Positions 1,403 through 39,297 of a stretch of 43,157 nucleotides of DNA are shown here, one piece after another. The position numbers were made by a program, and so were the translations under genes. The number at the start of each line of letters is the position of its first letter. Position 1 is the first letter of the stretch. The notes beneath the pieces were generated by a model. The model worked only from the letters and a program-made list of their open reading frames with translations, was not told the origin of the DNA and did not search any database. The stretch comes from Escherichia phage vB_EcoS_MM01. Where the stretch lies: sequence record MK373793.1; one strand, written 5' to 3'.

Positions 1403-1483
1403 ATGTACTATGACGTTATCGCTGTTTGCTTGGTTGCCATTGTTGCTATCGTTGCCATTGTTAAGATTACGGAGAAGAAGTAA
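1403..1483 (+). CDS. small hydrophobic peptide (26 aa, MYYDVIAVCLVAIVAIVAIVKITEKK)
   Basis: short ORF read manually downstream of motif A/B unit; single predicted TM stretch. Confidence 0.3.
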   Translation: MYYDVIAVCLVAIVAIVAIVKITEKK

Positions 1484-9554: not shown

Positions 9555-11096
9555 ATGGCTTTAGAATTTAGGCAAATCCTTGCTGGTAACACAGCATCAC
9601 TTAGCCGTAAGGTGCTAGAGGCAATTGCGGAAGGTTGGCAGCCATTTGATAGAGTCCTGACCGGTACTGGATCTAATACCATTGGCATGGTTGTAGCCAA
9701 GGGAACCAATGCAGACATTACCGATTTCATGGTTCTTACTGCCACCAGTCGTCAAAAGCTAATTGATAGAGTAAACGATATCACTCACGAAGGTTGGGAG
9801 GTGTTTGGCGAACCGTCATCTGAGTCAAATCAGTTTGCAGTTGCGTTAACTAAAGGATTTCAGGGTACATCCGGTAGAGATGGAATGGCTGGCCCACAAG
9901 GTCCGCAAGGTCCGCGCGGAGAGGTTGGCCCAGAAGGTCCGCAGGGTCCAAAAGGTGACGATGGTACGCCTGGTGAAAAGGGTGAGCGTGGCGCTGTAGG
10001 TCCGCAAGGACCAATTGGCCCACAGGGCATTCAAGGTCCGCAAGGAATTCAAGGTCCAGCTGGCTTAAAGGGTGATAAGGGCGATAGGGGTGATGTTGGA
10101 CCGCAAGGGACGCAAGGATTAAAAGGTGATACTGGCGAGAAAGGAGACCCTGGCGAAGTCGGGCCTGCTGGTTTAACATTCCGTGGGCAATGGGTTCCTA
10201 GCACTGGTTATACAAAAGATGACACTGTAGTTTACGGCGGCTCAACCTACTTCGCAGTTAGCAACATTGCAGAAGATGAGGAACCTGGAGTATCACCTCT
10301 GTGGGTTGTTCTTGCCGCTCAGGGTACGAAAGGTGATAAGGGTGATAAGGGTGACCCTGGTGATATCGGTCCTCAAGGTGAAAAAGGAGAAACAGGACAG
10401 CAGGGCCCAAGAGGGGTTCAGGGGCAACAAGGTATTCAAGGTTTACCAGGCGAACAGGGGCCAAAAGGTGATCAAGGATTGCAAGGAATTACTGGACCAG
10501 CCGGTCCTCAAGGACCAAAAGGTGACACTGGACCTCAGGGTATTCAAGGTCCACAAGGGATTAGAGGGGTTGCTGGAGCGGTAGGACCACAAGGACCACA
10601 GGGAGAGAGGGGCGAAAAGGGCGATAAAGGAGAAAAAGGCGAAACTGGCGCAACCGGCCCACAGGGTCCAGCAGGTCAAAATAATACAAACAATCCAGTT
10701 TATACAACTCAACTTACCGTATCGACAAGCTACTCAGCTATAGCTATACCAAACAACCCTGGCATCTCTTTTTCAGTCAGAAGGGTTGGGAATAACATTG
10801 AGTACTCTTTTGTAGGCAACTCAATTGCAGGAAGGTATTTTGATGTTGAGGTTGTAAACTTTCCATCTGCTGACGTAGTTAAGAGATATCAGTCAAACCA
10901 CACAATTGCAGGAACTAGCAGGTATGTTGTAGGTGATCCTGCTGGTTATACTGGTGGTGGATATAAAAGAATTCAATTCTCAGCTAGAGATTGGGGAGAT
11001 AAAAACATTATAATGATTGATGTTTTTCACCTTCAGCGCCCAGCTGATACTAGTTTTAACATCGCAATTAGGATTGAGACATTCAAGCTGCCATAA
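9555..11096 (+). CDS. collagen-like repeat protein (putative head or tail fibre)
   Basis: 513 aa; two long Gly-X-Y blocks (approx. aa 107-196 and 248-360) flanking a globular insert, plus non-collagenous N- and C-terminal domains. Confidence 0.8.
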
Positions 11097-14819: not shown

Positions 14820-14839
14820 CATAGCACTTTTTGCTAAAG
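14820..14839 (+). repeat. junction motif A copy (catagcactttttgctaaag)
   Basis: motif A followed by motif B atcgaaacga at 14871-14880 and ATG 14898. Confidence 0.6.
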
Positions 14840-14897: not shown

Positions 14898-15284
14898 ATG
14901 AAAGTAATCATCGCAATTATGGCAACCCTGTTACTTGCTGGTTGCAACACAGACAAGGTTAAGACACTTAATGTTGATCTGACCTCAAATGAATGCAAGA
15001 ACATCGTATACAGCGCGACTGTTAACAATGAATCATTTACTCGGCTTTCATTCAAGCACCCGGAACTTAAAGAAGCTGTTATGTATGTGTCCCACATTGA
15101 GTGCACGAAATCTGTTAACAATTTTACACGTGGTGTTGTAATTGAACGCACTACAACATTGGCAAAGGTATCAAAGCCTAGTGACGCCTCAATTGAGATG
15201 GTTTATACTAAGCTATACAATTTAGAAGGTTTCGCTAAGGAAGTTGGCGAGAAGCTGGCTTACTCACGCGTTGTTATAAAATAA
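14898..15284 (+). CDS. lipoprotein (moron in tail module)
   Basis: N-terminal signal peptide with lipobox LLAGC; AT-rich; own motif A/B unit upstream. Confidence 0.7.
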   Translation: MKVIIAIMATLLLAGCNTDKVKTLNVDLTSNECKNIVYSATVNNESFTRLSFKHPELKEAVMYVSHIECTKSVNNFTRGVVIERTTTLAKVSKPSDASIEMVYTKLYNLEGFAKEVGEKLAYSRVVIK

Positions 15285-21824: not shown

Positions 21825-21873
21825 TTAGTGTAGAATGGCACAAATGATCAAAACAAACATGAGGCTTTATGAT

Positions 21874-24800
21874 ATGGCTGAAGAGATTAAGATTTATGGC
21901 GCTAAGGGTGGTAGCCAGAAGCAACACCAACCAGTAGAGCAGGAAGACAACCTTATTTCGGTGAACAAGGTTAAGGTATTGCTTGCCGTTGCTGATGGTG
22001 AGGTTGACCCTAATTTCTCCATGAAGGATTTATACCTTGCTGATGTGCCTGTTCAGAACCAGGATAACAGCTACAACTATGAAGGAGTTCGGGCAGAATT
22101 TCGCTCTGGGACTCAGTATCAGGATTACATTGCTGGGCTTGATGGTGCTAACTCAGAGATTCAGGCATCTCGTGAAATCACAAATGATACGCCTTACATC
22201 ATTGCGGTTAATAACAGTCAGCTTTCAGCAATTCGAGTTAAACTATTTTGGCCTCGACTAGTTAAACAGGAAAGCAATGGAGACCTGAATGGTACAACTT
22301 GCGAGTACGCAATTGACTTGTCTGTTAATGGTGGAGCATATCAGGAATACACTCGCGGAGTTGCAAACGGGAAGACAACAACTGGTTACGACCGTAGTAT
22401 CCGTGTAAACCTTCCGGCTGAATTTGATAGCGCGCTAGTTAGAATTCGGAAGATTACGCCTGATTCAACAATTAGCACTCTGGTTAATGGAATGCAGATT
22501 ACAACCTATCAGGAAGTGATTGACGCTAAATTCCGCTATCCGCTTACGGCTCTGGTTTACGTTGAGTTTGGCTCTGACCTGTTCCCTAATGGCATCCCGA
22601 CAATCTCTATCAAGAAGAGATGGAAACTTATTCAGGTTCCAACGAACTATAATCCAGAGACAAGAACTTATAGCGGCACATGGAATGGTCTATTTAAAAT
22701 GGCTTGGTCAAATAACCCTGCGTGGGTTCTTTATGACTTAGTAACAAACCGCCGCTATGGTCTTGACCAGCGAGAGTTGGGTGTAGAGATTGATAAGTGG
22801 GGTCTATACGAAGCCGCGCAATTCTGTGACCAGATGGTGCCGGATGGGAAAGGTGGAATGGAGCCGCGTTACCTGTGCGATATGGTTGTGCAGAATAAAG
22901 TTGAGGCCTACACGCTAATTCGTGATATCTGTTCAATATTCCGTGGCCTGACTTTCTATGATGGCGAAAAGATTGGTATCGTGGTTGATAAACCGCGAAA
23001 CCCGTCTTACATCTTCACTAATGATAACGTTGTAAACGGATTATTCAGCCGCACCTTTGCCAGTGATAAGAGTCTTTACACCACGGCAAACGTTCAGTTT
23101 GATGATGTTGAGAACAACTATCAGCAGGATGTTGAGCCAGTTTTTGAACTCGAGGCTACTCGCCGCTTTGGTTTTAACCCTGTTGATTTAACTGCTATTG
23201 GCTGTACTCGAAGAAGCGAAGCAAACAGGCGCGGTAGGTGGCTTCTAAAAACAAATCTGAGAAGCGAAACTATCAGCTTCACTACCGGACTGGAAGGCAT
23301 GATTCCGATGATTGGCGAGGTTATTGCGGTTAATGACGCAGCATGGTCTAGCAACTATCAATTAAACCTTTCTGGTCGAATCGAATCAGTGCAGGGGTTG
23401 CAGGTTTTTACCCCGTTTAAAGTTGACGCAGCACCTGGTGATAGAATCCTGCTTAACAAGCCTGACGGAAGCCCAGAGGCAAGAACCATTGCCAGCGTTT
23501 CGGAAGATGGTAGAACAATCAACCTTAACACTGCTTTCAGTTTTGTGGCTCAGCCGGATACTGTTTTCGCAATCGATAAGAACAACCTCGCGCTTCAGCA
23601 GTATGTGGTGACCGGGATTCAAAAAGCAGACACTGATGGTCAGGACTCATTTCAATATACGATTACTGCTGTAGAGTACGACCAGAACAAATACGATGAG
23701 ATTGACTACGGCGTTAACATCATTGACCGCCCAACATCAATTGTAGAGCCTGACAGATTATCGCCACCAGAAAACCTGACCGTGTCAAGCTACAGCAAGA
23801 TTGTTCAGGGATTGTCGGTTGAGACAATGGTTATTGGCTGGGATAAGGCGCCATACGCTAAAACATACAATGTTCAGTGGAGAAAAGAGAATGGTAACTG
23901 GATTAACGTACCCAGAACAGCTAGCACAGAAGTTGATATCGAGGGCATTTACGCAGGAATCTATGACGTTAGGGTTCGCAGCGTATCAGATACTGAAAAC
24001 GTGTCTGCATGGTCTGGTATTGTAACAAGAAGCCTTACTGGAAAGATTGGTAAGCCACCAAAGCTGCAGGTTATAACGGCGACTGATGACGAAGTTTTCG
24101 GAATTAGAGTTAAGTGGGGCTTTGCAGATGGTAGTGGCGACACTGCATACACAGAGCTTCAGCAGGTAGAGGACAATGGCGATGGCACATACAATCCAGA
24201 CAATGCAAGTTTACTTACTTTGGTTCCGTATCCTCAATATGAATATTGGCACTCTCCAATACAACCGGGTAAGGTTATTTGGTATAGGGCAAGAATCATA
24301 GACAGAATCGGAAACACTTCTGATTGGACTGATTTTGTTAGAGGTATGAGTACTGACGATGCGCAAAAGATAGCTGAGTACATTAAGGTTGATATAGAGC
24401 AGTCTGAAGGTTTTAAATACCTACAGCAGAATGCAATTGAGAAAAACCAGGACATTCAGAATCAAGCTGAGGCAATTATCGAGAACGCGTTGGCTAATGA
24501 TGGTGATGTTCGAAGAATGACAAAGGAGAATGGCAAACGTAAGGCTGAATATGTTCAGGCGGTTAATCTTATAGCTAATGAAACTGAGGCGCGTGTAGAG
24601 GCTCTCACGCAGCTTAAAGCGCAGATAGATGACGAGGTTGTGGCGTCAATTAGTGAAGTTCAGACAGCGCTAGCCACAGAGACCGAAGCAAGGACTACAG
24701 CTGACACAGCATTATCTGCAAGATTGGGTGATAATGAAGCAGCTCTAAACCAGAAGCTAGACGCTTTCTCTAATGCTACATCAACTGGCGTACAGTACGG

Positions 24801-25230
24801 AATAAGCCTTGGTCTTAAATACAATGGACAGACCTATTCATCTGGCATGAGTATGGAGCTAGTTGGCACTGGTGGAAATGTTCGCAGTCAGTTCATATTT
24901 GACGCAAACAGATTCGCCATAAGTAATGGCATTGGTTCTGGTTCCGGTCAGTGGCAATTGCCTTTCGTTGTCGAGAATGGGAGCGTAATCATCCAAAGCG
25001 CAGTTATCGGCGATGGTTCAATCAGTAACGCGAAGATTGGTAACTTTATTCAGTCAAACAATTACGTGGCTAACACTACCGGTTGGAGACTTGATAAAGG
25101 TGGCACATTCGAGAATAACGGGTCAACACCTGGTGAAGGTAGAATGAAGCAGACTAACCAAACAATTTCTGTAGCAGATGCAAATGGAAGGCTTCGTGTT
25201 CAGATTGGTCGTTTAACTGGAGTATACTAA
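21874..25230 (+). CDS. central tail fibre / host specificity protein (lambda gpJ-like)
   Basis: N-terminus GAKGGSQKQHQP...LISVNKVKVLLAVADGEVD and internal TPDSTISTL...YPLTALVYVEF match the lambda J pattern; start chosen at ATG 21874 with GAGG RBS (track 21835). Confidence 0.85.
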   Translation: MAEEIKIYGAKGGSQKQHQPVEQEDNLISVNKVKVLLAVADGEVDPNFSMKDLYLADVPVQNQDNSYNYEGVRAEFRSGTQYQDYIAGLDGANSEIQASREITNDTPYIIAVNNSQLSAIRVKLFWPRLVKQESNGDLNGTTCEYAIDLSVNGGAYQEYTRGVANGKTTTGYDRSIRVNLPAEFDSALVRIRKITPDSTISTLVNGMQITTYQEVIDAKFRYPLTALVYVEFGSDLFPNGIPTISIKKRWKLIQVPTNYNPETRTYSGTWNGLFKMAWSNNPAWVLYDLVTNRRYGLDQRELGVEIDKWGLYEAAQFCDQMVPDGKGGMEPRYLCDMVVQNKVEAYTLIRDICSIFRGLTFYDGEKIGIVVDKPRNPSYIFTNDNVVNGLFSRTFASDKSLYTTANVQFDDVENNYQQDVEPVFELEATRRFGFNPVDLTAIGCTRRSEANRRGRWLLKTNLRSETISFTTGLEGMIPMIGEVIAVNDAAWSSNYQLNLSGRIESVQGLQVFTPFKVDAAPGDRILLNKPDGSPEARTIASVSEDGRTINLNTAFSFVAQPDTVFAIDKNNLALQQYVVTGIQKADTDGQDSFQYTITAVEYDQNKYDEIDYGVNIIDRPTSIVEPDRLSPPENLTVSSYSKIVQGLSVETMVIGWDKAPYAKTYNVQWRKENGNWINVPRTASTEVDIEGIYAGIYDVRVRSVSDTENVSAWSGIVTRSLTGKIGKPPKLQVITATDDEVFGIRVKWGFADGSGDTAYTELQQVEDNGDGTYNPDNASLLTLVPYPQYEYWHSPIQPGKVIWYRARIIDRIGNTSDWTDFVRGMSTDDAQKIAEYIKVDIEQSEGFKYLQQNAIEKNQDIQNQAEAIIENALANDGDVRRMTKENGKRKAEYVQAVNLIANETEARVEALTQLKAQIDDEVVASISEVQTALATETEARTTADTALSARLGDNEAALNQKLDAFSNATSTGVQYGISLGLKYNGQTYSSGMSMELVGTGGNVRSQFIFDANRFAISNGIGSGSGQWQLPFVVENGSVIIQSAVIGDGSISNAKIGNFIQSNNYVANTTGWRLDKGGTFENNGSTPGEGRMKQTNQTISVADANGRLRVQIGRLTGVY

Positions 25231-25277: not shown

Positions 25278-25583
25278 ATGGCTGAGTATGGAATTGCAAC
25301 ATATGATGCAAATGGTAATTACAATAACTACGGGATTAAGCCGGTTACGGTTGTCGCGGTTGTTGATTTAGCGGCAGGTCAAACTTCCGGATCATACACA
25401 TACACAATACCTAGCGGTTATAAGGTTGGGTACTTTATAACGTTAGATGAGGGGGCAGTTAATAATGGCAGGTACATAGTGGCGAGTGGTAACTCTATAA
25501 CCATTGTTCCGGGAAATGCTGCCGCAGATGGTTACTACCCAGCGACTAAGTGTAAAATGGTAGTTTATTTGGAGAAAGTATAA
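25278..25583 (+). CDS. small tail-tip associated protein (paralogue 1)
   Basis: ATG 25278 with GGAG RBS (track start 25266 is TTG); N-terminus MAEYGIATYDANGN resembles next gene. Confidence 0.45.
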   Translation: MAEYGIATYDANGNYNNYGIKPVTVVAVVDLAAGQTSGSYTYTIPSGYKVGYFITLDEGAVNNGRYIVASGNSITIVPGNAAADGYYPATKCKMVVYLEKV

Positions 25584-26254
25584 TGGCAGATTATGGCGCG
25601 ATAATTGATGTTAACGGAAACCCATTCATCACCCCCGCTTCAACTCCTTTTTGTCTTTACCGAAAGTATACTTTTCAGTCTTCGGGTGATTCTGCGGCGC
25701 ACAGTGTAACTCAATACTTACCTTTCAATTCAAGCTATCCAGTTAGCGTTTTCATTAAAACAAGCGCGCCAGGACAAGGTGTGGCAGTGATAGCATACAA
25801 CATAACAGAAGGTCCAAACGCAGGAACAATATATATAAATGGCACAAACTATGCGGGTCAATCATTCACATTGACGGCCTATGTTTTCGCTATATTCCCG
25901 CAAAATCTGCCAGATTGGGGAATGGCGATATGGGATGCGAAAGGCGATCTTGTACTGACCAACGAGAGCAAGGTGCTAAGCGACCTTTTTACTGTTAATG
26001 GAAGAGGTATAGATATTGACTCAACTTATCAAGGCAGCGTTGCGGTTTGCCCAGCGGCACTTGGCGCCCTTAACGTTTACCAGGTCCAGAATGGACAGCA
26101 AATAATAAGGTCCGCTACTGCTGGCGTTTCCTGTAGGTACAATGGATCAACAACAAGAATAAATGCAGTTCCATTGATAAACGGAACGCAGGCGTCAGGA
26201 GGAACAACCAACGGAGCAAGGGTTACGGCAATTTATACAGCAGCATACGACTAA
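25583..26254 (+). CDS. small tail-tip associated protein (paralogue 2)
   Basis: 223 aa, N-terminus MADYGAIIDVNGNP; ATGA-coupled to previous gene. Confidence 0.45.
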   Translation: MADYGAIIDVNGNPFITPASTPFCLYRKYTFQSSGDSAAHSVTQYLPFNSSYPVSVFIKTSAPGQGVAVIAYNITEGPNAGTIYINGTNYAGQSFTLTAYVFAIFPQNLPDWGMAIWDAKGDLVLTNESKVLSDLFTVNGRGIDIDSTYQGSVAVCPAALGALNVYQVQNGQQIIRSATAGVSCRYNGSTTRINAVPLINGTQASGGTTNGARVTAIYTAAYD

Positions 26255-26279
26255 AGCCCCTTCCGGGGCTTTTCATTTA

Positions 26280-26501
26280 TCAACCTCCACAATCGTGGTC
26301 TTTGAAATTCCGGTCAGAGACGTACTGAAATGAGAATGGATATCCAGCCCTAAGTAAAAGCTCCTCACCGCGTTTCTGCGTACCAAAAATATAAACCGAG
26401 TAATTCATCCCGCCTGACTCATAAACAGCCGTACAAGTGCGTTCTGGCATCGTAGAGCACCCACCTAACACCATTGCCGCGATAACGATTAATTTTTTCA
26501 T
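26280..26501 (-). CDS. lipoprotein (superinfection-exclusion candidate)
   Basis: internal ATG of track ORF 26280..26555 gives MKKLIVIAAMVLGGC lipobox; AGGTGA RBS. Confidence 0.65.
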   Translation of the reverse strand: MKKLIVIAAMVLGGCSTMPERTCTAVYESGGMNYSVYIFGTQKRGEELLLRAGYPFSFQYVSDRNFKDHDCGG

Positions 26502-26511
26502 CTTATTCACC

Positions 26512-26616
26512 TTAGAACCCTTTAAAGTTGGAAGCCAGAAGAAGAACCCAAACAAAGAAACCAGTTACAGCAGCGCCGAAGGTGAAGGCCATTACGTTGG
26601 TTGCGAAGTTAGTCAT
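26512..26616 (-). CDS. small membrane peptide (34 aa)
   Basis: MTNFATNVMAFTFGAAVTGFFVWVLLLASNFKGF; preceded on minus strand by motif A/B unit. Confidence 0.4.
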   Translation of the reverse strand: MTNFATNVMAFTFGAAVTGFFVWVLLLASNFKGF

Positions 26617-26681
26617 TTTTGAATCCTTAGTAAGTATTTTTCGTTTCGATGGAGTAATAGTACCGCATCCTTGCGGATTGT

Positions 26682-26701
26682 CTTTAGCAATTCGTGCTAT
26701 T
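26682..26701 (-). repeat. junction motif A copy (aatagcacgaattgctaaag on minus strand)
   Basis: supplies stop codon of upstream methyltransferase-like ORF; motif B at 26641-26650. Confidence 0.6.
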
Positions 26702-27340
26702 CGCCAAGAATACAGCTCTTGCAAATCCACGAGGTGTAAGACTGCGAATTACCTTCGTCTTCTTGCTCTTGCCACCGAGTTTCTTATATTGGTCAGAGAA
26801 ACCATCATTAACATCAACAGGAAGCAACTCAGGCCACTTAAATCCATTACCAGACCAAATGCACGTCTTCTTAGGGTATGCGTCCCTTGACTTTATTAGG
26901 TCGCTAAAAAACGGGTGTAAATCATCTTCAGGCAAGTATCCACCAAACTCGTAAGGGTGGAATGTGTTATCAGGCTTTCGCCACAGAGATGACAGTACAC
27001 TGATTGGATTCTCAATCATATAAGGCACGCCGTACTTCTCAGCCAGGTTAAAAGCAACCTTGCAAGTTTCTGCCGCTTCAGTCTGGAAGTTTGGGTTAGC
27101 TTGGCGCTTACGTTCAAAATGCCTTGACCCACTCACAGCCAAATCAGTGCATGGTGGGAAAGCCAATATGAAATCAGGTTTCACATCAAAATCGAAGTTT
27201 GCATCAATCCATGCGTTAACGTACTTAATGTTATCGTGCTCAACCTTCGCATTCAAATCGCCGTAACTACCGTGGTCAGACTCGTCAAAGTTGAAGCAGT
27301 AACAAGTGTGACCAGCCTCAGCCCTAGTTAGCGCAGCAGA
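26684..27340 (-). pseudogene. cytosine-C5 DNA methyltransferase-like ORF, apparently 5'-truncated
   Basis: PDFILAFPPCTDLAVSG resembles C5-MTase motif IV (PC dipeptide) and MIENP the ENV motif, but no FxGxG motif I; frame open to 27340 with no ATG/GTG, only TTG at 27256. Confidence 0.45.
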
Positions 27341-27359
27341 CTATGACAAGGTTGTCGCA

Positions 27360-27866
27360 ATGCGCGAGGTTCTTTGCAACATTCCGGCTTATGATAGTAT
27401 TGTTAACAGCGAAACGGCTCAGAAGGAGTTATCAATCTTTGGTGAGATTCTCGGTGTTGGTGTAAAGATTCGAATTGACCACGTTGACGTTGTTGATGGA
27501 GTTGTTCATATCACAGATTATAAGACCACAGCAGACGCAAGCCCTGAAGGGTTCGGTAAATCAGCTTTCTCTCATGGATACTTGGCTAAAATGGCATTGC
27601 AGCGCGATCTGTTTGTAAAAGCATTTAACGAGAAGAGGAAGGTAGTCGTTGGTCTTATGGCACAAGAAAAAACTGAACCTTACTTACCCATGAAGTACAC
27701 GCTAACAGATGATCAGCTTCGTATTGGCAGATTGCAGTATCTTGAAGCCCTAGCTACATACAAGAAATGCAAGGAGCTTGATATATGGCCTGGTTACTCA
27801 AATGGGATTACAGAGCAAGAGCTAGTTATCCCTGATTGGGCAACTAAGCAGTATAAAGAAATTTAA
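27360..27866 (+). CDS. PD-(D/E)xK exonuclease (lambda Exo/YqaJ-like), possibly N-terminally truncated
   Basis: catalytic-core-like IDHVDVVDG...ITDYKT near N-terminus; frame opens only at 27312. Confidence 0.55.
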   Translation: MREVLCNIPAYDSIVNSETAQKELSIFGEILGVGVKIRIDHVDVVDGVVHITDYKTTADASPEGFGKSAFSHGYLAKMALQRDLFVKAFNEKRKVVVGLMAQEKTEPYLPMKYTLTDDQLRIGRLQYLEALATYKKCKELDIWPGYSNGITEQELVIPDWATKQYKEI

Positions 27867-37046: not shown

Positions 37047-37099
37047 CGATACCCACGAAAGTGGGTATTATTGTTTTATCGAAACGAGAGGAGATAGAA

Positions 37100-37892: not shown

Positions 37893-38096
37893 ATGAACGA
37901 GAGAGATAAAATGACTAACGTAACACTGAAATGCACATCAAACACTTCTAAGTCCCTGGATTTCGTAGTAGGAAATACTTATGAGGCAGTTGACCGCAAG
38001 GACTCGATGTTTGAGGTGATCAGCGAGAAAGGTTGGTGTTTGATTATGCCGCTGGATGGGCACTTCGTTAAGTTTGGGGTAACAAAACAGAAATAA
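37893..38096 (+). CDS. hypothetical protein (67 aa)
   Basis: ORF track. Confidence 0.45.
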   Translation: MNERDKMTNVTLKCTSNTSKSLDFVVGNTYEAVDRKDSMFEVISEKGWCLIMPLDGHFVKFGVTKQK

Positions 38097-38228: not shown

Positions 38229-38444
38229 ATGCGCGATGTAATTAACGCCGCTACTGCTCTTTCTGGCGGCTCTTCCTTGACTGGAGCTGCTACTGGGCAG
38301 CTTGTTGTTGCTGTTATTGGTCTTATTTTTCTTATTGCATTTGGTTTGTTTGGTGCCTGGCTTAAGTGGAAGGATAGTAAAGCAATTCGCCGCGCGCTAG
38401 AGTCTGGAGACTTGCAGACAGCGTTAAAGCTGAGAGCTAAGTAA
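38229..38444 (+). CDS. holin (possibly pinholin)
   Basis: 71 aa, Gly/Ala-rich hydrophobic segments, charged C-terminus, directly upstream of endolysin. Confidence 0.5.
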   Translation: MRDVINAATALSGGSSLTGAATGQLVVAVIGLIFLIAFGLFGAWLKWKDSKAIRRALESGDLQTALKLRAK

Positions 38445-38935
38445 TGAGTACGCAAAGGGTAGTGATAGGCGTACTAACTGCGGGTGCTATAGGTATAGCC
38501 GCCCCTCTTATCGAAAAGGTGGAGGGTGTAGAGTACAAGCCTTATAAGGACATCGCTGGAATTTGGACTGTTTGCAGTGGTATTACTGGTCCTGATGTCA
38601 TCATTGGTAAAACATATACCAAATCAGAGTGCAGGAAATTGTTAACCAAGCACATAGCAATACACGGGAAATATGTTGAAGATGCCATTAAAGTTCCAGT
38701 ACATCCAAACACTCGAGCGGCGCTAATTAGCTTTAGCTACAATGTTGGCGGCAATGCAATGAGGAAGTCTACAGCTGTAAGGCTAATTAACAACGGAAAG
38801 ATTGAGCAGGGGTGTAAGGCGCTGAGTCTTTGGAATAAAGCCACCATTAACGGCAAGAAGGTTGTCGTTAAGGGGCTTGTTAATCGCAGGAATGAGGAGA
38901 TCAAGCTATGCTTAAGCGGCTTGCAGGGTTATTGA
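38444..38935 (+). CDS. SAR endolysin (lysozyme, phage 21 R-like)
   Basis: N-terminal Gly/Ala-rich signal-anchor VVIGVLTAGAIGIAAPLI then EGVEYKPYKDIAGIWTVCSGITG with Glu/Asp/Thr catalytic triad. Confidence 0.8.
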   Translation: MSTQRVVIGVLTAGAIGIAAPLIEKVEGVEYKPYKDIAGIWTVCSGITGPDVIIGKTYTKSECRKLLTKHIAIHGKYVEDAIKVPVHPNTRAALISFSYNVGGNAMRKSTAVRLINNGKIEQGCKALSLWNKATINGKKVVVKGLVNRRNEEIKLCLSGLQGY

Positions 38936-39297
38936 TGTTCGCGGCCTTATCTGGATGCTCGGCAACTGATGCGCTGACCGGGCTAATTGGCAGTAAGCCA
39001 GAAGTCACGGCACAGGTTGGTGCGGCTAACAATAAGGTTGGCGTTGGTGCTTCAGTTAGTAGCGACTCTAGCAACTCATCAGAGGCCACAGTAAGAGATT
39101 CAAAGGTTGGTAGCCTTGATAGCTCTAGCGGTAAAAAGACCTCTGACAATTCGATTAAGGCATCTACAATCACTGCAGAAAAGATTGAAATTACCAATAA
39201 CGAATCATCCGCGCTTCCGTGGATTGGAACAGGAGCTATGGGTCTGCTGGTTTTAATTCTCCTGGCCTTAATCTTAAGACGTAAAAAAGCCTCCTAA
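38908..39297 (+). CDS. unimolecular spanin (lipoprotein with C-terminal TMD)
   Basis: lipobox LSGC at N-terminus and C-terminal TM helix GLLVLILLALIL followed by RRKKAS. Confidence 0.6.
   Translation: MLKRLAGLLMFAALSGCSATDALTGLIGSKPEVTAQVGAANNKVGVGASVSSDSSNSSEATVRDSKVGSLDSSSGKKTSDNSIKASTITAEKIEITNNESSALPWIGTGAMGLLVLILLALILRRKKAS

What the first reader, a model, noticed from the sequence alone, without database searches (positions are those of the whole stretch)
26280..26616. Two-gene membrane cassette (small TM peptide + lipoprotein) next to the tail-tip genes: superinfection-exclusion candidate
A minus-strand mini-operon with its own motif A/B unit encodes a 34-aa single-TM peptide and a 73-aa lipoprotein (lipobox VLGGC). 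It sits immediately beside the J-like receptor-binding region. Phage lipoproteins in this position (Cor of T1/phi80, Llp of T5) are known to inactivate the phage's own receptor. The protein has no similarity I can recognise to those, so it may be an uncharacterised exclusion or receptor-masking module.
Basis: inference. Interest (0 to 1): 0.55.

Follow-up and report, generated by a model that had tools for sequence, protein, structure and literature searches.

The report
Known Cor exclusion lipoprotein plus micro-ORF
The 73-residue lipoprotein is an ordinary member of the well-known Cor family, which T1-like and lambdoid phages use to shut down their own FhuA receptor, and the only new element is the 34-residue membrane peptide in front of it, a conserved but uncatalogued small gene that is not specific to Cor.

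Summary
Both ORFs exist exactly where reported, on the minus strand. The 34-aa peptide is at 26616-26512 and the 73-aa lipoprotein at 26501-26280. They sit behind their own promoter-like unit and in front of a bidirectional terminator, convergent with the tail-tip genes.

The lipoprotein is Cor. It passes NCBIfam's curated Cor model (49.9 bits, cut-off 31) and matches PHROG 1119 (E 9e-27). It is 71% identical to T1 Cor and 33-37% identical to phi80, N15 and HK022 Cor. It keeps the lipobox cysteine, the two cysteines conserved throughout the family (a presumed disulfide) and the AGYPF motif. Its model is closest to T5 Llp bound to FhuA.

The window is phage vB_EcoS_MM01, and UniRef already names this protein a superinfection exclusion protein. 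The adjacent two-gene receptor locus is the FhuA type.

The peptide is a real gene (pN/pS 0.47 in frame, about 1 out of frame; always 31-38 aa). It is not a Cor partner. One copy per genome sits first behind the same promoter unit. In different phages it lies ahead of Cor, a FepA-locus lipoprotein, the SH3/lysis cassette or a Dam methylase. T1, phi80, N15 and HK022 have Cor without it. Its function is unknown.

The parts
26280..26501 (-). cor: 73-aa Cor-family superinfection-exclusion lipoprotein precursor. The signal peptide is residues 1-14, the lipidated Cys is residue 15, and the mature protein is 59 aa with Cys23/Cys71 and AGYPF.
   Evidence: ORF. PHROG 1119 E 9.2e-27. NCBIfam NF047972 49.9 bits, cut-off 31. 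71% identity to T1 Cor and 33-37% to phi80/N15/HK022 Cor. Family invariants present. Lipobox rule met. AF2 model with pLDDT 83, closest by TM-score to Llp 8a60_B. Equals QBQ80874.1 of phage vB_EcoS_MM01.
26512..26616 (-). 34-aa single-pass membrane micro-ORF (MTN...WVLLLASNFKGF). It is the first cistron of the transcription unit and lies 10 nt upstream of cor. It is not called as a gene in the source record.
   Evidence: ORF and Shine-Dalgarno. Hydropathy. Always 34 aa in close relatives, pN/pS 0.43 in frame against 0.99 and 1.27 out of frame, and Ser29 uses both TCN and AGY codons. Across 25 distinct family sequences pN/pS is 0.47 against 0.94 and 1.38. Family found by profile search. No Pfam or PHROG family. 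The exact sequence is absent from the protein collection.
26641..26700 (-). Promoter-like unit ('motif A/B'): inverted repeat TAGCACGAATTGCTA (26699-26685), a 22-nt spacer holding the small hairpin CCGCAAGGATGCGG (26676-26663), the -10-like TACTAT (26662-26657), and the conserved leader CATCGAAACGA (26651-26641).
   Evidence: 13 copies of the inverted repeat in the window against 0.26 expected. Each copy lies 65-87 nt before a start codon. The same unit precedes every peptide homologue examined. The repeat aaATAGCACnnnTTGnTAAAA is described in phage TLS with unknown function (PMC11447400). Hairpin -6.6 kcal/mol, z -2.1. Function as a promoter is inferred.
26253..26272 (.). Bidirectional terminator-like hairpin (AAAGCCCC-TTCC-GGGGCTTT) between the convergent cor and tail-tip genes.
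   Evidence: Terminator scan. RNA folds of -15.8 kcal/mol (minus strand) and -13.1 kcal/mol (plus strand), z -2.5 and -3.1. The equivalent hairpin is annotated as a terminator after T1 cor.
25583..26254 (+). 223-aa receptor-locus protein (PHROG 425), the second gene of the FhuA-type locus downstream of J.
   Evidence: PHROG 425 E 2.5e-58. 54% identity to the T1 homologue and 53% to phi80 gp23. Unrelated to the FepA-type locus of Rao1/IME253.
25278..25583 (+). About 101-aa receptor-locus protein (PHROG 557), the first gene downstream of J. The ORF list starts it at TTG 25266; the ATG is at 25278.
   Evidence: PHROG 557 E 5.6e-26. The same gene order J / ~100 aa / ~224 aa / cor is found in T1, phi80, N15, aaroes, GeorgBuechner and Erwinia phage 49.
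21835..25230 (+). J-like tail tip protein (1131 aa).
   Evidence: ORF. Annotated homologues in JulesPiccard, Phagiculus and Sf12.
26684..27340 (-). 5'-truncated Dcm-like C5 methylase remnant upstream of the cassette. Its last codons (ANSTNC*) overlap the inverted repeat of the promoter unit.
   Evidence: PHROG 757 E 2.5e-70, starting at profile position 47. Aligns to AugustePiccard bas01_0030 only from residue 18 of 229. It has no ATG or RBS, so the cassette most likely depends on its own unit.

Best explanation
The window is the T1-like phage vB_EcoS_MM01, and the 73-aa gene is its cor gene.

Inferred pathway, from what is established for bacterial lipoproteins and for the Cor/Llp family:
- The precursor is exported.
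- It is diacylglycerol-modified on Cys15 by Lgt, cleaved by signal peptidase II and N-acylated.
- There the 59-residue, presumably disulfide-stabilised beta domain binds the periplasmic face of the phage's own terminal receptor, predicted to be FhuA.
- Binding locks FhuA in a state that the receptor-binding proteins of this and other FhuA-dependent phages cannot use.
- The likely benefits are protection of the infected cell from superinfection and of progeny from adsorbing to debris.

The gene is transcribed from its own copy of the phage-wide ATAGCAC...TTGCTAAA promoter unit and ends at a bidirectional terminator.

The 34-aa ORF ahead of it is a genuine, selected, single-pass membrane micro-protein. 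It is an independent, movable first cistron: one copy per genome, always directly behind that promoter unit, and 0-11 nt from whatever gene follows. It is not a dedicated Cor subunit, and its own function is unknown.

Shown here: ORFs, homology, motifs, fold similarity, locus type, and the distribution of and selection on the peptide. Inferred: lipidation, localisation, FhuA binding, promoter activity, translational coupling.
For: Cor identity:
- PHROG 1119 E 9.2e-27 over the full length.
- NCBIfam equivalog NF047972, 'phage exclusion lipoprotein Cor', 49.9 bits against a cut-off of 31.
- tblastn 71% identity to T1 Cor (E 2e-30), 37% to N15, 35.5% to phi80 and 33% to HK022 Cor. There are 231 phage records, many annotated as Cor or superinfection exclusion.
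- The invariant Cys15, Cys23, Cys71 and AGYPF are present.
- UniRef already names this exact protein a super-infection exclusion protein.

Mechanism by analogy:
- The AF2 model (pLDDT 83) has its best TM-score and rmsd match in the PDB to Llp in the FhuA-Llp crystal structure 8a60_B (TMt 0.62, 2.8 A over 59 columns).
- The Llp paper states that Cor proteins likely act as Llp does (PMC9586334).
- The KanT1 paper reports an AF3 model of Cor docked on the periplasmic face of FhuA (PMC13164509).
- The cryo-EM structure of Rtp45 on LptDE shows the same logic in another T1-like phage (PMC12685063).

FhuA prediction:
- The adjacent proteins are PHROG 557 and 425.
- The 223-aa protein is 54% identical to T1's and 53% to phi80's homologue.
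- In BASEL phages the trio Cor plus these two proteins was found only with FhuA.

Peptide is real but not Cor-specific. Cor occurs without the peptide in T1, phi80, N15, HK022, aaroes, GeorgBuechner and Erwinia phage 49.
Against: - No experiment was possible. Lipidation, outer-membrane sorting, FhuA binding and exclusion are all inferred.
- The Foldseek E-value for Llp is not significant (0.12), as expected for a 59-residue domain, and Tudor/chromo-like barrels score similarly by E-value.
- Receptor specificity is inferred from locus type. Some Cor-like proteins accompany BtuB-using phages.
- In the eight phages where the peptide sits before Cor, its position and tight spacing leave room for some functional or expression link that sequence analysis cannot exclude.
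- The promoter unit has no acceptable -35 at sigma-70 spacing, and its activity and timing are unknown.
Confidence: 0.82

Rival explanations
1. One reading: a two-component exclusion module in which the 34-aa inner-membrane peptide is a required partner of the lipoprotein, for example helping its export or maturation or forming a trans-envelope complex.
For: The two ORFs share one promoter unit and terminator and are 1 or 10 nt apart in every phage that has both. The arrangement recurs with a second, distantly Cor-related lipoprotein at the FepA-type locus.
Against: - The same peptide family precedes a non-exported DUF7244/SH3 protein with the lysis genes, and a cytoplasmic Dam methylase, in other Drexlerviridae.
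- Cor loci of T1, phi80, N15, HK022, aaroes, GeorgBuechner and Erwinia phage 49 have no such ORF.
- From the published record, recalled rather than read here, cloned N15/phi80-type cor alone confers exclusion.
Confidence: 0.08
2. The micro-ORF acts mainly in cis as a leader cistron. Its translation delivers ribosomes to the tightly spaced downstream start (termination-reinitiation or RBS unmasking) and sets the expression level of whatever gene follows. The peptide itself would be a by-product.
For: - It is always the first ORF after the promoter unit.
- The gap from its stop to the next start is 0-11 nt whatever the downstream gene.
- In the 1-nt-gap variants the last codons (AAA GGG / AAG GGC) supply the only Shine-Dalgarno for the next gene.
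Against: - Amino-acid sequence, length and hydrophobic character are conserved well beyond the RBS-overlapping codons. G14, T18, W23, V24, L27, A28, F31 and G33 are invariant or nearly so.
- pS is 0.64 against pN 0.30.
- Serine codon-family switches occur at position 29.
- No conserved RNA structure sequesters the downstream RBS.
- Most other promoter units drive genes without any leader ORF.
Confidence: 0.2
3. The micro-protein is a lysis-timing factor that interacts with the T1-type pinholin, for example as a mimic of its N-terminal TMD1. It only happens to have been relocated next to cor in this lineage.
For: - In many relatives the peptide heads the SH3-holin-endolysin-spanin block.
- There is weak profile similarity between the peptide family and the first 20 residues of T1-type pinholins (M-[KR]-[DN]...G...TG; hhalign E 0.0014 for the single comparison).
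Against: - The hhalign probability is only 17% over 20 columns of a Gly/Ala/Thr-rich TM segment, which is easily spurious.
- A terminator separates the SH3 gene from the holin gene in those loci.
- The peptide also sits ahead of Dam in weberviruses and ahead of cor here.
- T1 lyses without it.
Confidence: 0.12
4. The pair is a two-component spanin: an inner-membrane subunit plus an outer-membrane lipoprotein subunit.
For: The arrangement of a TM peptide followed by a small lipoprotein resembles this superficially. There is a marginal PHROG Rz-like hit (E 0.18) confined to the signal peptide.
Against: - The peptide has no periplasmic domain (34 aa in total).
- The lipoprotein is Cor by curated models.
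- The phage has a complete lysis cassette with its own u-spanin (38908-39297) elsewhere.
Confidence: 0.01
5. The lipoprotein is Cor-family but masks a TonB-dependent transporter other than FhuA.
For: Cor-like proteins also occur in BtuB-using phages (PMC13164509). A distant Cor relative sits in the FepA-type locus of IME253-like phages.
Against: It is 71% identical to T1 Cor, and the neighbouring locus proteins are 53-54% identical to those of the FhuA-dependent T1 and phi80. The three-gene cassette tracked FhuA in BASEL phages.
Confidence: 0.08

Closest known systems
Cor of phage T1 (AAP49969.1, 'lysogenic conversion protein') and of close T1-like phages (Sd1, Sf12, Opt-79)
   Same: 71% identity to T1 Cor and 89-93% to the Cor proteins of Sd1, Opt-79 and Phagiculus. 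Same length, lipobox, conserved cysteines and AGYPF motif. Same position, convergent with the J / ~100-aa / ~224-aa tail-tip genes, and the same terminator hairpin.
   Different: T1 cor has its own AT-rich upstream region and no micro-ORF. Here cor is the second cistron behind the ATAGCAC unit and the 34-aa peptide.
Cor of the temperate phages phi80, N15 and HK022 (moron-encoded exclusion lipoprotein acting on FhuA)
   Same: Homologous over the whole length (33-37% identity, E 5e-8 to 7e-6). Same three-gene order after J. The phi80 record annotates signal peptidase II processing and FhuA blocking.
   Different: In the temperate phages cor is co-oriented with the tail genes, expressed from a sigma-70 moron promoter in the lysogen, and has no leader ORF. 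Here the phage is virulent and the gene is convergent.
Llp of phage T5 (PDB 8A60, FhuA-Llp complex)
   Same: A small outer-membrane lipoprotein encoded beside the receptor-binding gene. The predicted fold of this Cor is closest to Llp (TMt 0.62, rmsd 2.8 A, 20% identity). Published work treats Cor and Llp as working alike.
   Different: Sequence similarity is marginal (profile E 0.0054, mostly the signal peptide). The associated receptor-binding protein (pb5) is unrelated. This is a functional analogue, and at most a distant relative, not a family member.
Rtp45 of phage Rtp (PDB 9RPS, LptDE-Rtp45 complex)
   Same: The exclusion lipoprotein of a T1-like phage, driven by the same promoter unit and placed at the same locus next to J.
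   Different: It targets LptD, is co-transcribed with the receptor-binding gene rtp44, has no detectable sequence relation to Cor beyond the signal peptide, and has no micro-ORF.
For the 34-aa peptide: no described family. The nearest lead is the N-terminal TMD1 of T1-type pinholins (PF27028).
   Same: A short Gly/Ala/Thr-rich transmembrane segment with a similar N-terminal pattern. In many relatives the peptide gene lies two genes upstream of the pinholin gene.
   Different: The hhalign probability is 17%. The peptide lacks the second TM segment and the cytoplasmic tail of the holin, and it has its own conserved C-terminus, WV(I/L)xLASNF(K/N)GF.

Membership tests
Cor phage exclusion lipoprotein (NCBIfam NF047972; PHROG 1119) | Scores above the curated family threshold over the full length | tested here: met
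   NF047972 49.9 bits against a cut-off of 31, residues 1-71 on profile positions 1-76 of 78. PHROG 1119 E 9.2e-27, residues 1-72.
Cor phage exclusion lipoprotein (NCBIfam NF047972; PHROG 1119) | Direct homology to the experimentally studied members (T1, phi80, N15, HK022 Cor) | tested here: met
   tblastn identities of 71%, 35.5%, 37% and 33%, with E 2e-30 to 7e-6.
Cor phage exclusion lipoprotein (NCBIfam NF047972; PHROG 1119) | Lipoprotein signal peptide with a lipobox cysteine and no inner-membrane retention residue at +2 | tested here: met
   IVIAAMVLGG|C matches the PROSITE-style rule. There are two Lys residues in the n-region and Ser at +2.
Cor phage exclusion lipoprotein (NCBIfam NF047972; PHROG 1119) | Two further invariant cysteines in the mature protein and the AGYPF motif | tested here: met
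   C23, C71 and A52-G-Y-P-F56 are invariant across 15 Cor sequences from T1-like, lambdoid, Dhillonvirus and Erwinia phages.
Cor phage exclusion lipoprotein (NCBIfam NF047972; PHROG 1119) | Located next to the J-like gene and the two-gene FhuA-type receptor locus (PHROG 557 + 425) | tested here: met
   The same order is seen in T1, phi80, N15, aaroes, GeorgBuechner and Erwinia phage 49.
Cor phage exclusion lipoprotein (NCBIfam NF047972; PHROG 1119) | Expression blocks adsorption or infection by FhuA-dependent phages and impairs FhuA functions | not testable with these tools
   This needs plating, adsorption and ferrichrome/albomycin assays.
Cor phage exclusion lipoprotein (NCBIfam NF047972; PHROG 1119) | Lipid modification and outer-membrane localisation | not testable with these tools
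   This needs globomycin sensitivity, palmitate labelling and membrane fractionation.
Llp (T5 lytic conversion lipoprotein) | Significant sequence similarity to Llp | tested here: inconclusive
   The Cor-family profile against 8a60_B gives E 0.0054 and 20 bits, covering profile positions 1-44, mainly the signal peptide.
Llp (T5 lytic conversion lipoprotein) | Same fold as Llp in the FhuA complex | tested here: inconclusive
   8a60_B is the best TM-score and rmsd match (TMt 0.62, 2.8 A, 59 columns, probability 1.00), but E is 0.12 and small Tudor-like barrels rank alongside it. This agrees with the published TM-score of 0.69 for KanT1 Cor.
Llp (T5 lytic conversion lipoprotein) | Encoded beside a pb5-type receptor-binding protein | tested here: not met
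   The neighbouring genes are PHROG 557/425 proteins of the T1/phi80 type.
Two-component spanin (i-spanin + o-spanin) | An inner-membrane subunit with a periplasmic coiled-coil domain, an outer-membrane lipoprotein subunit, and a position in the lysis cassette | tested here: not met
   The peptide is 34 aa with no periplasmic domain. The lipoprotein is Cor. A u-spanin is present in the real lysis cassette at 38908-39297.
T1-type pinholin (PF27028), considered for the 34-aa peptide | Profile similarity and the two-TM-plus-tail architecture | tested here: not met
   hhalign probability 17% over 20 columns. The peptide has one TM segment and no tail.

The most novel reading that the evidence does not exclude
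The 34-aa peptide belongs to an undescribed family of single-pass membrane micro-proteins of Drexlerviridae (31-38 aa, C-terminus WV(I/L)xLASNF(K/N)GF).

The family is kept at one copy per genome and is shuffled, together with the ATAGCAC promoter unit, between the heads of different operons: cor, a FepA-locus lipoprotein, SH3 with the lysis genes, and Dam.

The most novel reading is that it acts in trans on the envelope. It could be a receptor-independent second layer of exclusion at the inner membrane, or a modulator of the pinholin. In MM01-like phages it would then have been brought next to cor to form a two-layer exclusion cassette.
Probability: 0.25. Interest if true: 0.5.

Novelty: already known. 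Interest (0 to 1): 0.2.

Why it matters
For the lipoprotein, the result matters as a correction. The gene is deposited as 'hypothetical protein MM01_00039' but is a standard Cor. With its neighbours it predicts that this phage uses FhuA, which is useful for host-range prediction and for designing phage cocktails that avoid cross-exclusion.

The micro-ORF is a modest lead. It is a conserved small membrane protein that is left uncalled in several phage records (including this one, Sd1 and Sf12) and is absent from Pfam and PHROGs. It sits at the front of functionally different operons in many T1-like phages of E. coli, Shigella and Klebsiella. If it acts in trans, it would add a new small player to phage envelope biology. 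If it acts in cis, it would be a reusable expression leader.

Tried and rejected
- Pfam on both proteins gave nothing. Pfam has no Cor model that this protein reaches, which may be why the gene looked orphan.
- The spanin reading was rejected.
The profile search of 1.84 billion representatives was used instead and gave 7 true relatives and one spurious repeat protein, P0024.
- Scanning 12 family members against Pfam and PHROGs gave only scattered sub-threshold TM-segment hits (YiaAB, MHYT and others), so no family was assigned.
- I looked for the micro-ORF upstream of cor in T1, phi80, N15, HK022, GeorgBuechner, aaroes and Erwinia phage 49. It is absent from all of them.
- I looked for it upstream of the SH3 gene in T1 and in this window. 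It is absent there too.
- I tested whether an RNA structure links translation of the peptide to the cor RBS. Minimum-free-energy folds of 12 homologous leaders show no conserved pairing.
- I tested similarity between the peptide and pinholin TMD1. It is weak (probability 17%) and is kept only as a lead.
- The sigma-70 scan found no canonical promoter for the cassette. The -35-like TTGCTA is 22 nt from the -10-like hexamer, so the unit is probably activator-dependent or non-canonical.
- The Rtp genome paper (PMC1367250) could not be read. Statements about it rest on my own recollection and on citations.
Full report
**What is there.**

- The first ORF starts at ATG 26616, preceded by AAGGA at 26628-26624. 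It encodes MTNFATNVMAFTFGAAVTGFFVWVLLLASNFKGF and stops at 26514-26512.
- Ten bases later, after an AAGGTG that overlaps that stop codon, ATG 26501 opens a 73-codon ORF ending at 26282-26280.
- The peptide has one hydrophobic stretch (residues 8-26, mean Kyte-Doolittle 2.09).
- The second protein fits the lipobox rule (IVIAAMVLGG|C). It has Cys15, Ser at +2 and a 59-residue mature part.
- Downstream lies an 8-bp GC-rich hairpin (26253-26272) shared with the convergent tail-tip genes.
- Upstream lies a unit built from the inverted repeat TAGCACGAATTGCTA, a 22-nt spacer, TACTAT and CATCGAAACGA. The window holds 13 such inverted repeats against 0.26 expected, and where a downstream ORF was found its start lies 65-87 nt after the repeat.
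The same repeat (aaATAGCACnnnTTGnTAAAA) was described in phage TLS and noted in T1, Rtp and Rogue1, with no function assigned (PMC11447400).

**What the lipoprotein is.** That is incorrect.

- It matches PHROG 1119, 'Cor superinfection exclusion protein', over its whole length at E 9.2e-27.
- It passes NCBI's curated equivalog model NF047972, 'phage exclusion lipoprotein Cor', with 49.9 bits against a cut-off of 31.
- By tblastn it is 93% identical to the annotated Cor of Shigella phage Sd1 and 71% to T1 Cor (E 2e-30). It is 37% identical to N15 Cor, 35.5% to phi80 Cor and 33% to HK022 Cor. There are 231 matching phage records.
- In an alignment of 15 Cor proteins from T1-like, lambdoid, Dhillonvirus and Erwinia phages, the invariant positions are the lipobox cysteine, two further cysteines near the two ends of the mature protein, and an AGYPF motif. 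The window protein has all of them.
- An exact-sequence look-up identifies the window as Escherichia phage vB_EcoS_MM01 (43,157 bp). There the protein is deposited as 'hypothetical protein MM01_00039', while UniRef already calls it a super-infection exclusion protein.

**Context and receptor.** The cassette is convergent with the J-like gene (21835-25230). Two small genes follow J: PHROG 557 (about 101 aa) and PHROG 425 (223 aa).

- The order J / ~100 aa / ~224 aa / cor is the same in T1, phi80, N15, aaroes, GeorgBuechner and Erwinia phage 49.
- The 223-aa protein is 54% identical to T1's and 53% to phi80's homologue. It is unrelated to the corresponding protein of the FepA-type locus.
- Published work links allelic variants of this locus to the terminal receptor (PMC8594841).
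- In BASEL phages, Cor together with these two proteins was found only with FhuA (PMC13164509).

I therefore predict FhuA as the receptor. This is an inference.

**How it most likely works.**

- For the next step the best structural guide is T5 Llp. [quoted passage not shown] That paper states that Cor proteins (about 20% identity to Llp, including the disulfide) likely act the same way.
- My AlphaFold2 model of this Cor (mean pLDDT 83, above 90 through the beta core) has as its best TM-score and rmsd match in the PDB the Llp chain of the FhuA-Llp crystal, 8a60_B. The match is TMt 0.62, 2.8 A over 59 columns, at 20% identity.
- The Foldseek E-value (0.12) is not significant for so small a domain, and Tudor-like barrels rank alongside it.
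- The result agrees with the AF3 modelling of KanT1 Cor (TM-score 0.69 to Llp, docked on the periplasmic side of FhuA).
- The Rtp45-LptDE cryo-EM structure shows the same strategy in another T1-like phage.

None of these steps could be tested here.

**The 34-aa peptide is a real gene.**

- Among eight distinct close homologues the ORF is always 34 codons. Third positions vary most (22 variable columns against 14 and 10).
- Serine 29 is encoded by TCC, TCT, TCA, AGC and AGT.
- pN/pS is 0.43 in frame against 0.99 and 1.27 in the other two frames.
- A profile search of 1.84 billion representative proteins found more distant members of 34-38 aa with the same C-terminus. A scan of viral contigs found further members.
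- Over 25 distinct sequences, pS is 0.64 and pN is 0.30. This gives pN/pS of 0.47 in frame against 0.94 and 1.38 out of frame.
- G14, T18, L27, A28, F31 and G33 are invariant, and W23, V24 and F34 nearly so.
- No Pfam or PHROG family covers it.
- The exact MM01 sequence is absent from the 15-billion-protein collection, so it was never called as a gene there.
- In other records it is either unannotated (Sd1, Sf12, IME253) or listed as hypothetical, sometimes with an over-long start (JulesPiccard, 51 aa).

**The peptide is not a Cor partner.** Its homologues occupy four contexts. In every context the peptide lies directly behind the ATAGCAC unit and 0-11 nt before the next start codon.

- Before Cor: MM01, Sf12, Sd1, Opt-79, Phagiculus, JulesPiccard, RobRod40 and BUCT-XGG-1.
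- Before a 61-aa lipoprotein at the locus of IME253-like phages. IME253's receptor is reported as FepA. This lipoprotein is a distant Cor relative with a nearly identical signal peptide.
- Before a DUF7244/SH3-like protein, followed by the T1 holin, endolysin and spanin genes, in many contigs.
- Before a Dam-type methylase in Klebsiella weberviruses such as Sushi.

tblastn finds one place per genome. Conversely, the cor genes of T1, phi80, N15, HK022, aaroes, GeorgBuechner and Erwinia phage 49 have no such ORF upstream. T1 also lacks it at its SH3 gene. MM01's own SH3-like gene (37911-38096) follows its promoter unit directly and begins with the same nine bases, ATGACTAAC, as the peptide.

The simplest reading is that the promoter unit plus micro-ORF is a movable first cistron, exchanged between operon heads by recombination at the repeated units. 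This reading is an inference.

**What the peptide does is open.** I considered four possibilities:

- **A cis-acting leader for translational coupling.** The spacing supports this, and in the 1-nt-gap variants the last codons serve as the Shine-Dalgarno of the next gene. Against it stand the protein-level conservation and the lack of any conserved RNA structure.
- **A pinholin-interacting lysis factor.** The common lysis-cassette context and a weak hhalign match to the pinholin N-terminus support this, but the probability is only 17%.
- **An inner-membrane, receptor-independent exclusion factor.** There is no direct evidence for this.
- **A required Cor partner.** Its distribution argues against this.

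I rank the cis-leader and an independent trans-acting membrane protein as the two live options and cannot separate them computationally.

**Comparison with known systems, and novelty.** The lipoprotein is a member of the Cor family. Every sequence-testable defining feature is met, and the functional ones are untestable here. It works like, but is not demonstrably a member of, the T5 Llp family. It parallels Rtp45 in logic only. The spanin reading is excluded. The finding as posed, a possibly uncharacterised exclusion module, is therefore already known, and I score its interest low. The residual novelty lies in the micro-ORF family. I found no mention of it in the literature searched.

Noticed in passing
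window 27257-27360 (junction near 27324): This is a deletion junction where two divergent genes are both 5'-truncated and fused back to back. The minus-strand Dcm-like methylase aligns to AugustePiccard's 229-aa protein only from residue 18 and has no ATG or RBS. The plus-strand exonuclease VIII ORF (27360-27866, 168 aa) covers only profile positions 249-412 of 440, and its DNA homology to relatives starts at 27324. The genome (43.2 kb) is 3-7 kb shorter than those of its relatives.
   Followed up: partly
window 1330, 2799, 14822, 26699(-), 27868, 30628, 32196, 34696, 37029, 37824, 39659(-), 42245(-), 43115(-): There are 13 copies of the ATAGCAC-N3-TTGYTAAA inverted-repeat unit. Most are followed by a 22-nt spacer, a TATTAT-like hexamer and CATCGAAACGA. 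The spacer often holds a GC-rich hairpin of unrelated sequence (for example 26663-26676, 1349-1364 and 37050-37069). In Klebsiella phage Sushi this hairpin is annotated as the terminator of the upstream operon, so terminator and promoter appear to be nested. At 26685-26699 the repeat also encodes the last codons of the methylase.
   Followed up: partly
window 37911-38096 (+): This is a DUF7244/SH3-like gene (PHROG 4788) ahead of the lysis cassette: pinholin 38229-38444, SAR endolysin 38444-38935, u-spanin 38908-39297. It starts with ATGACTAAC, the same first three codons as the 34-aa peptide. In many relatives the peptide gene sits exactly here, which suggests a past exchange between the two sites.
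   Followed up: partly
window 1403-1483 (+): This is another very small hydrophobic ORF (26 aa, MYYDVIAVCLVAIVAIVAIVKITEKK), placed as the first ORF behind the promoter unit at 1330. I did not test it for conservation.
   Followed up: no
window 14898-15284 (+): This is a second predicted lipoprotein (128 aa, MKVIIAIMATLLLAGC...) behind the promoter unit at 14822, in the structural-gene region. It has no PHROG family at E <= 0.001.
   Followed up: partly
L005 2607-2792 (Rao1; same in IME253, ZL19, phiA2-1, TR3) compared with window 26460-26501: The 61-aa lipoprotein of the FepA-type locus shares an almost identical signal peptide (MKKLIVI.AM.L.GCS) with this Cor but has a divergent mature part. 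The recombination boundary between the conserved promoter/peptide module and the variable receptor module therefore seems to lie inside the lipoprotein's signal-peptide codons.
   Followed up: partly
window 9899-10576 (+): These are collagen-like Gly-X-Y repeats (several families of 9-nt-phased direct repeats) inside a structural gene.
   Followed up: no
phage collection hits H3, H37, H41, H62: Several records labelled 'Campylobacter phage' (A110b, A16a, A136, A144) carry T1-like cor loci 80% or more identical to E. coli phages. They look like mislabelled or contaminant Drexlerviridae.
   Followed up: no
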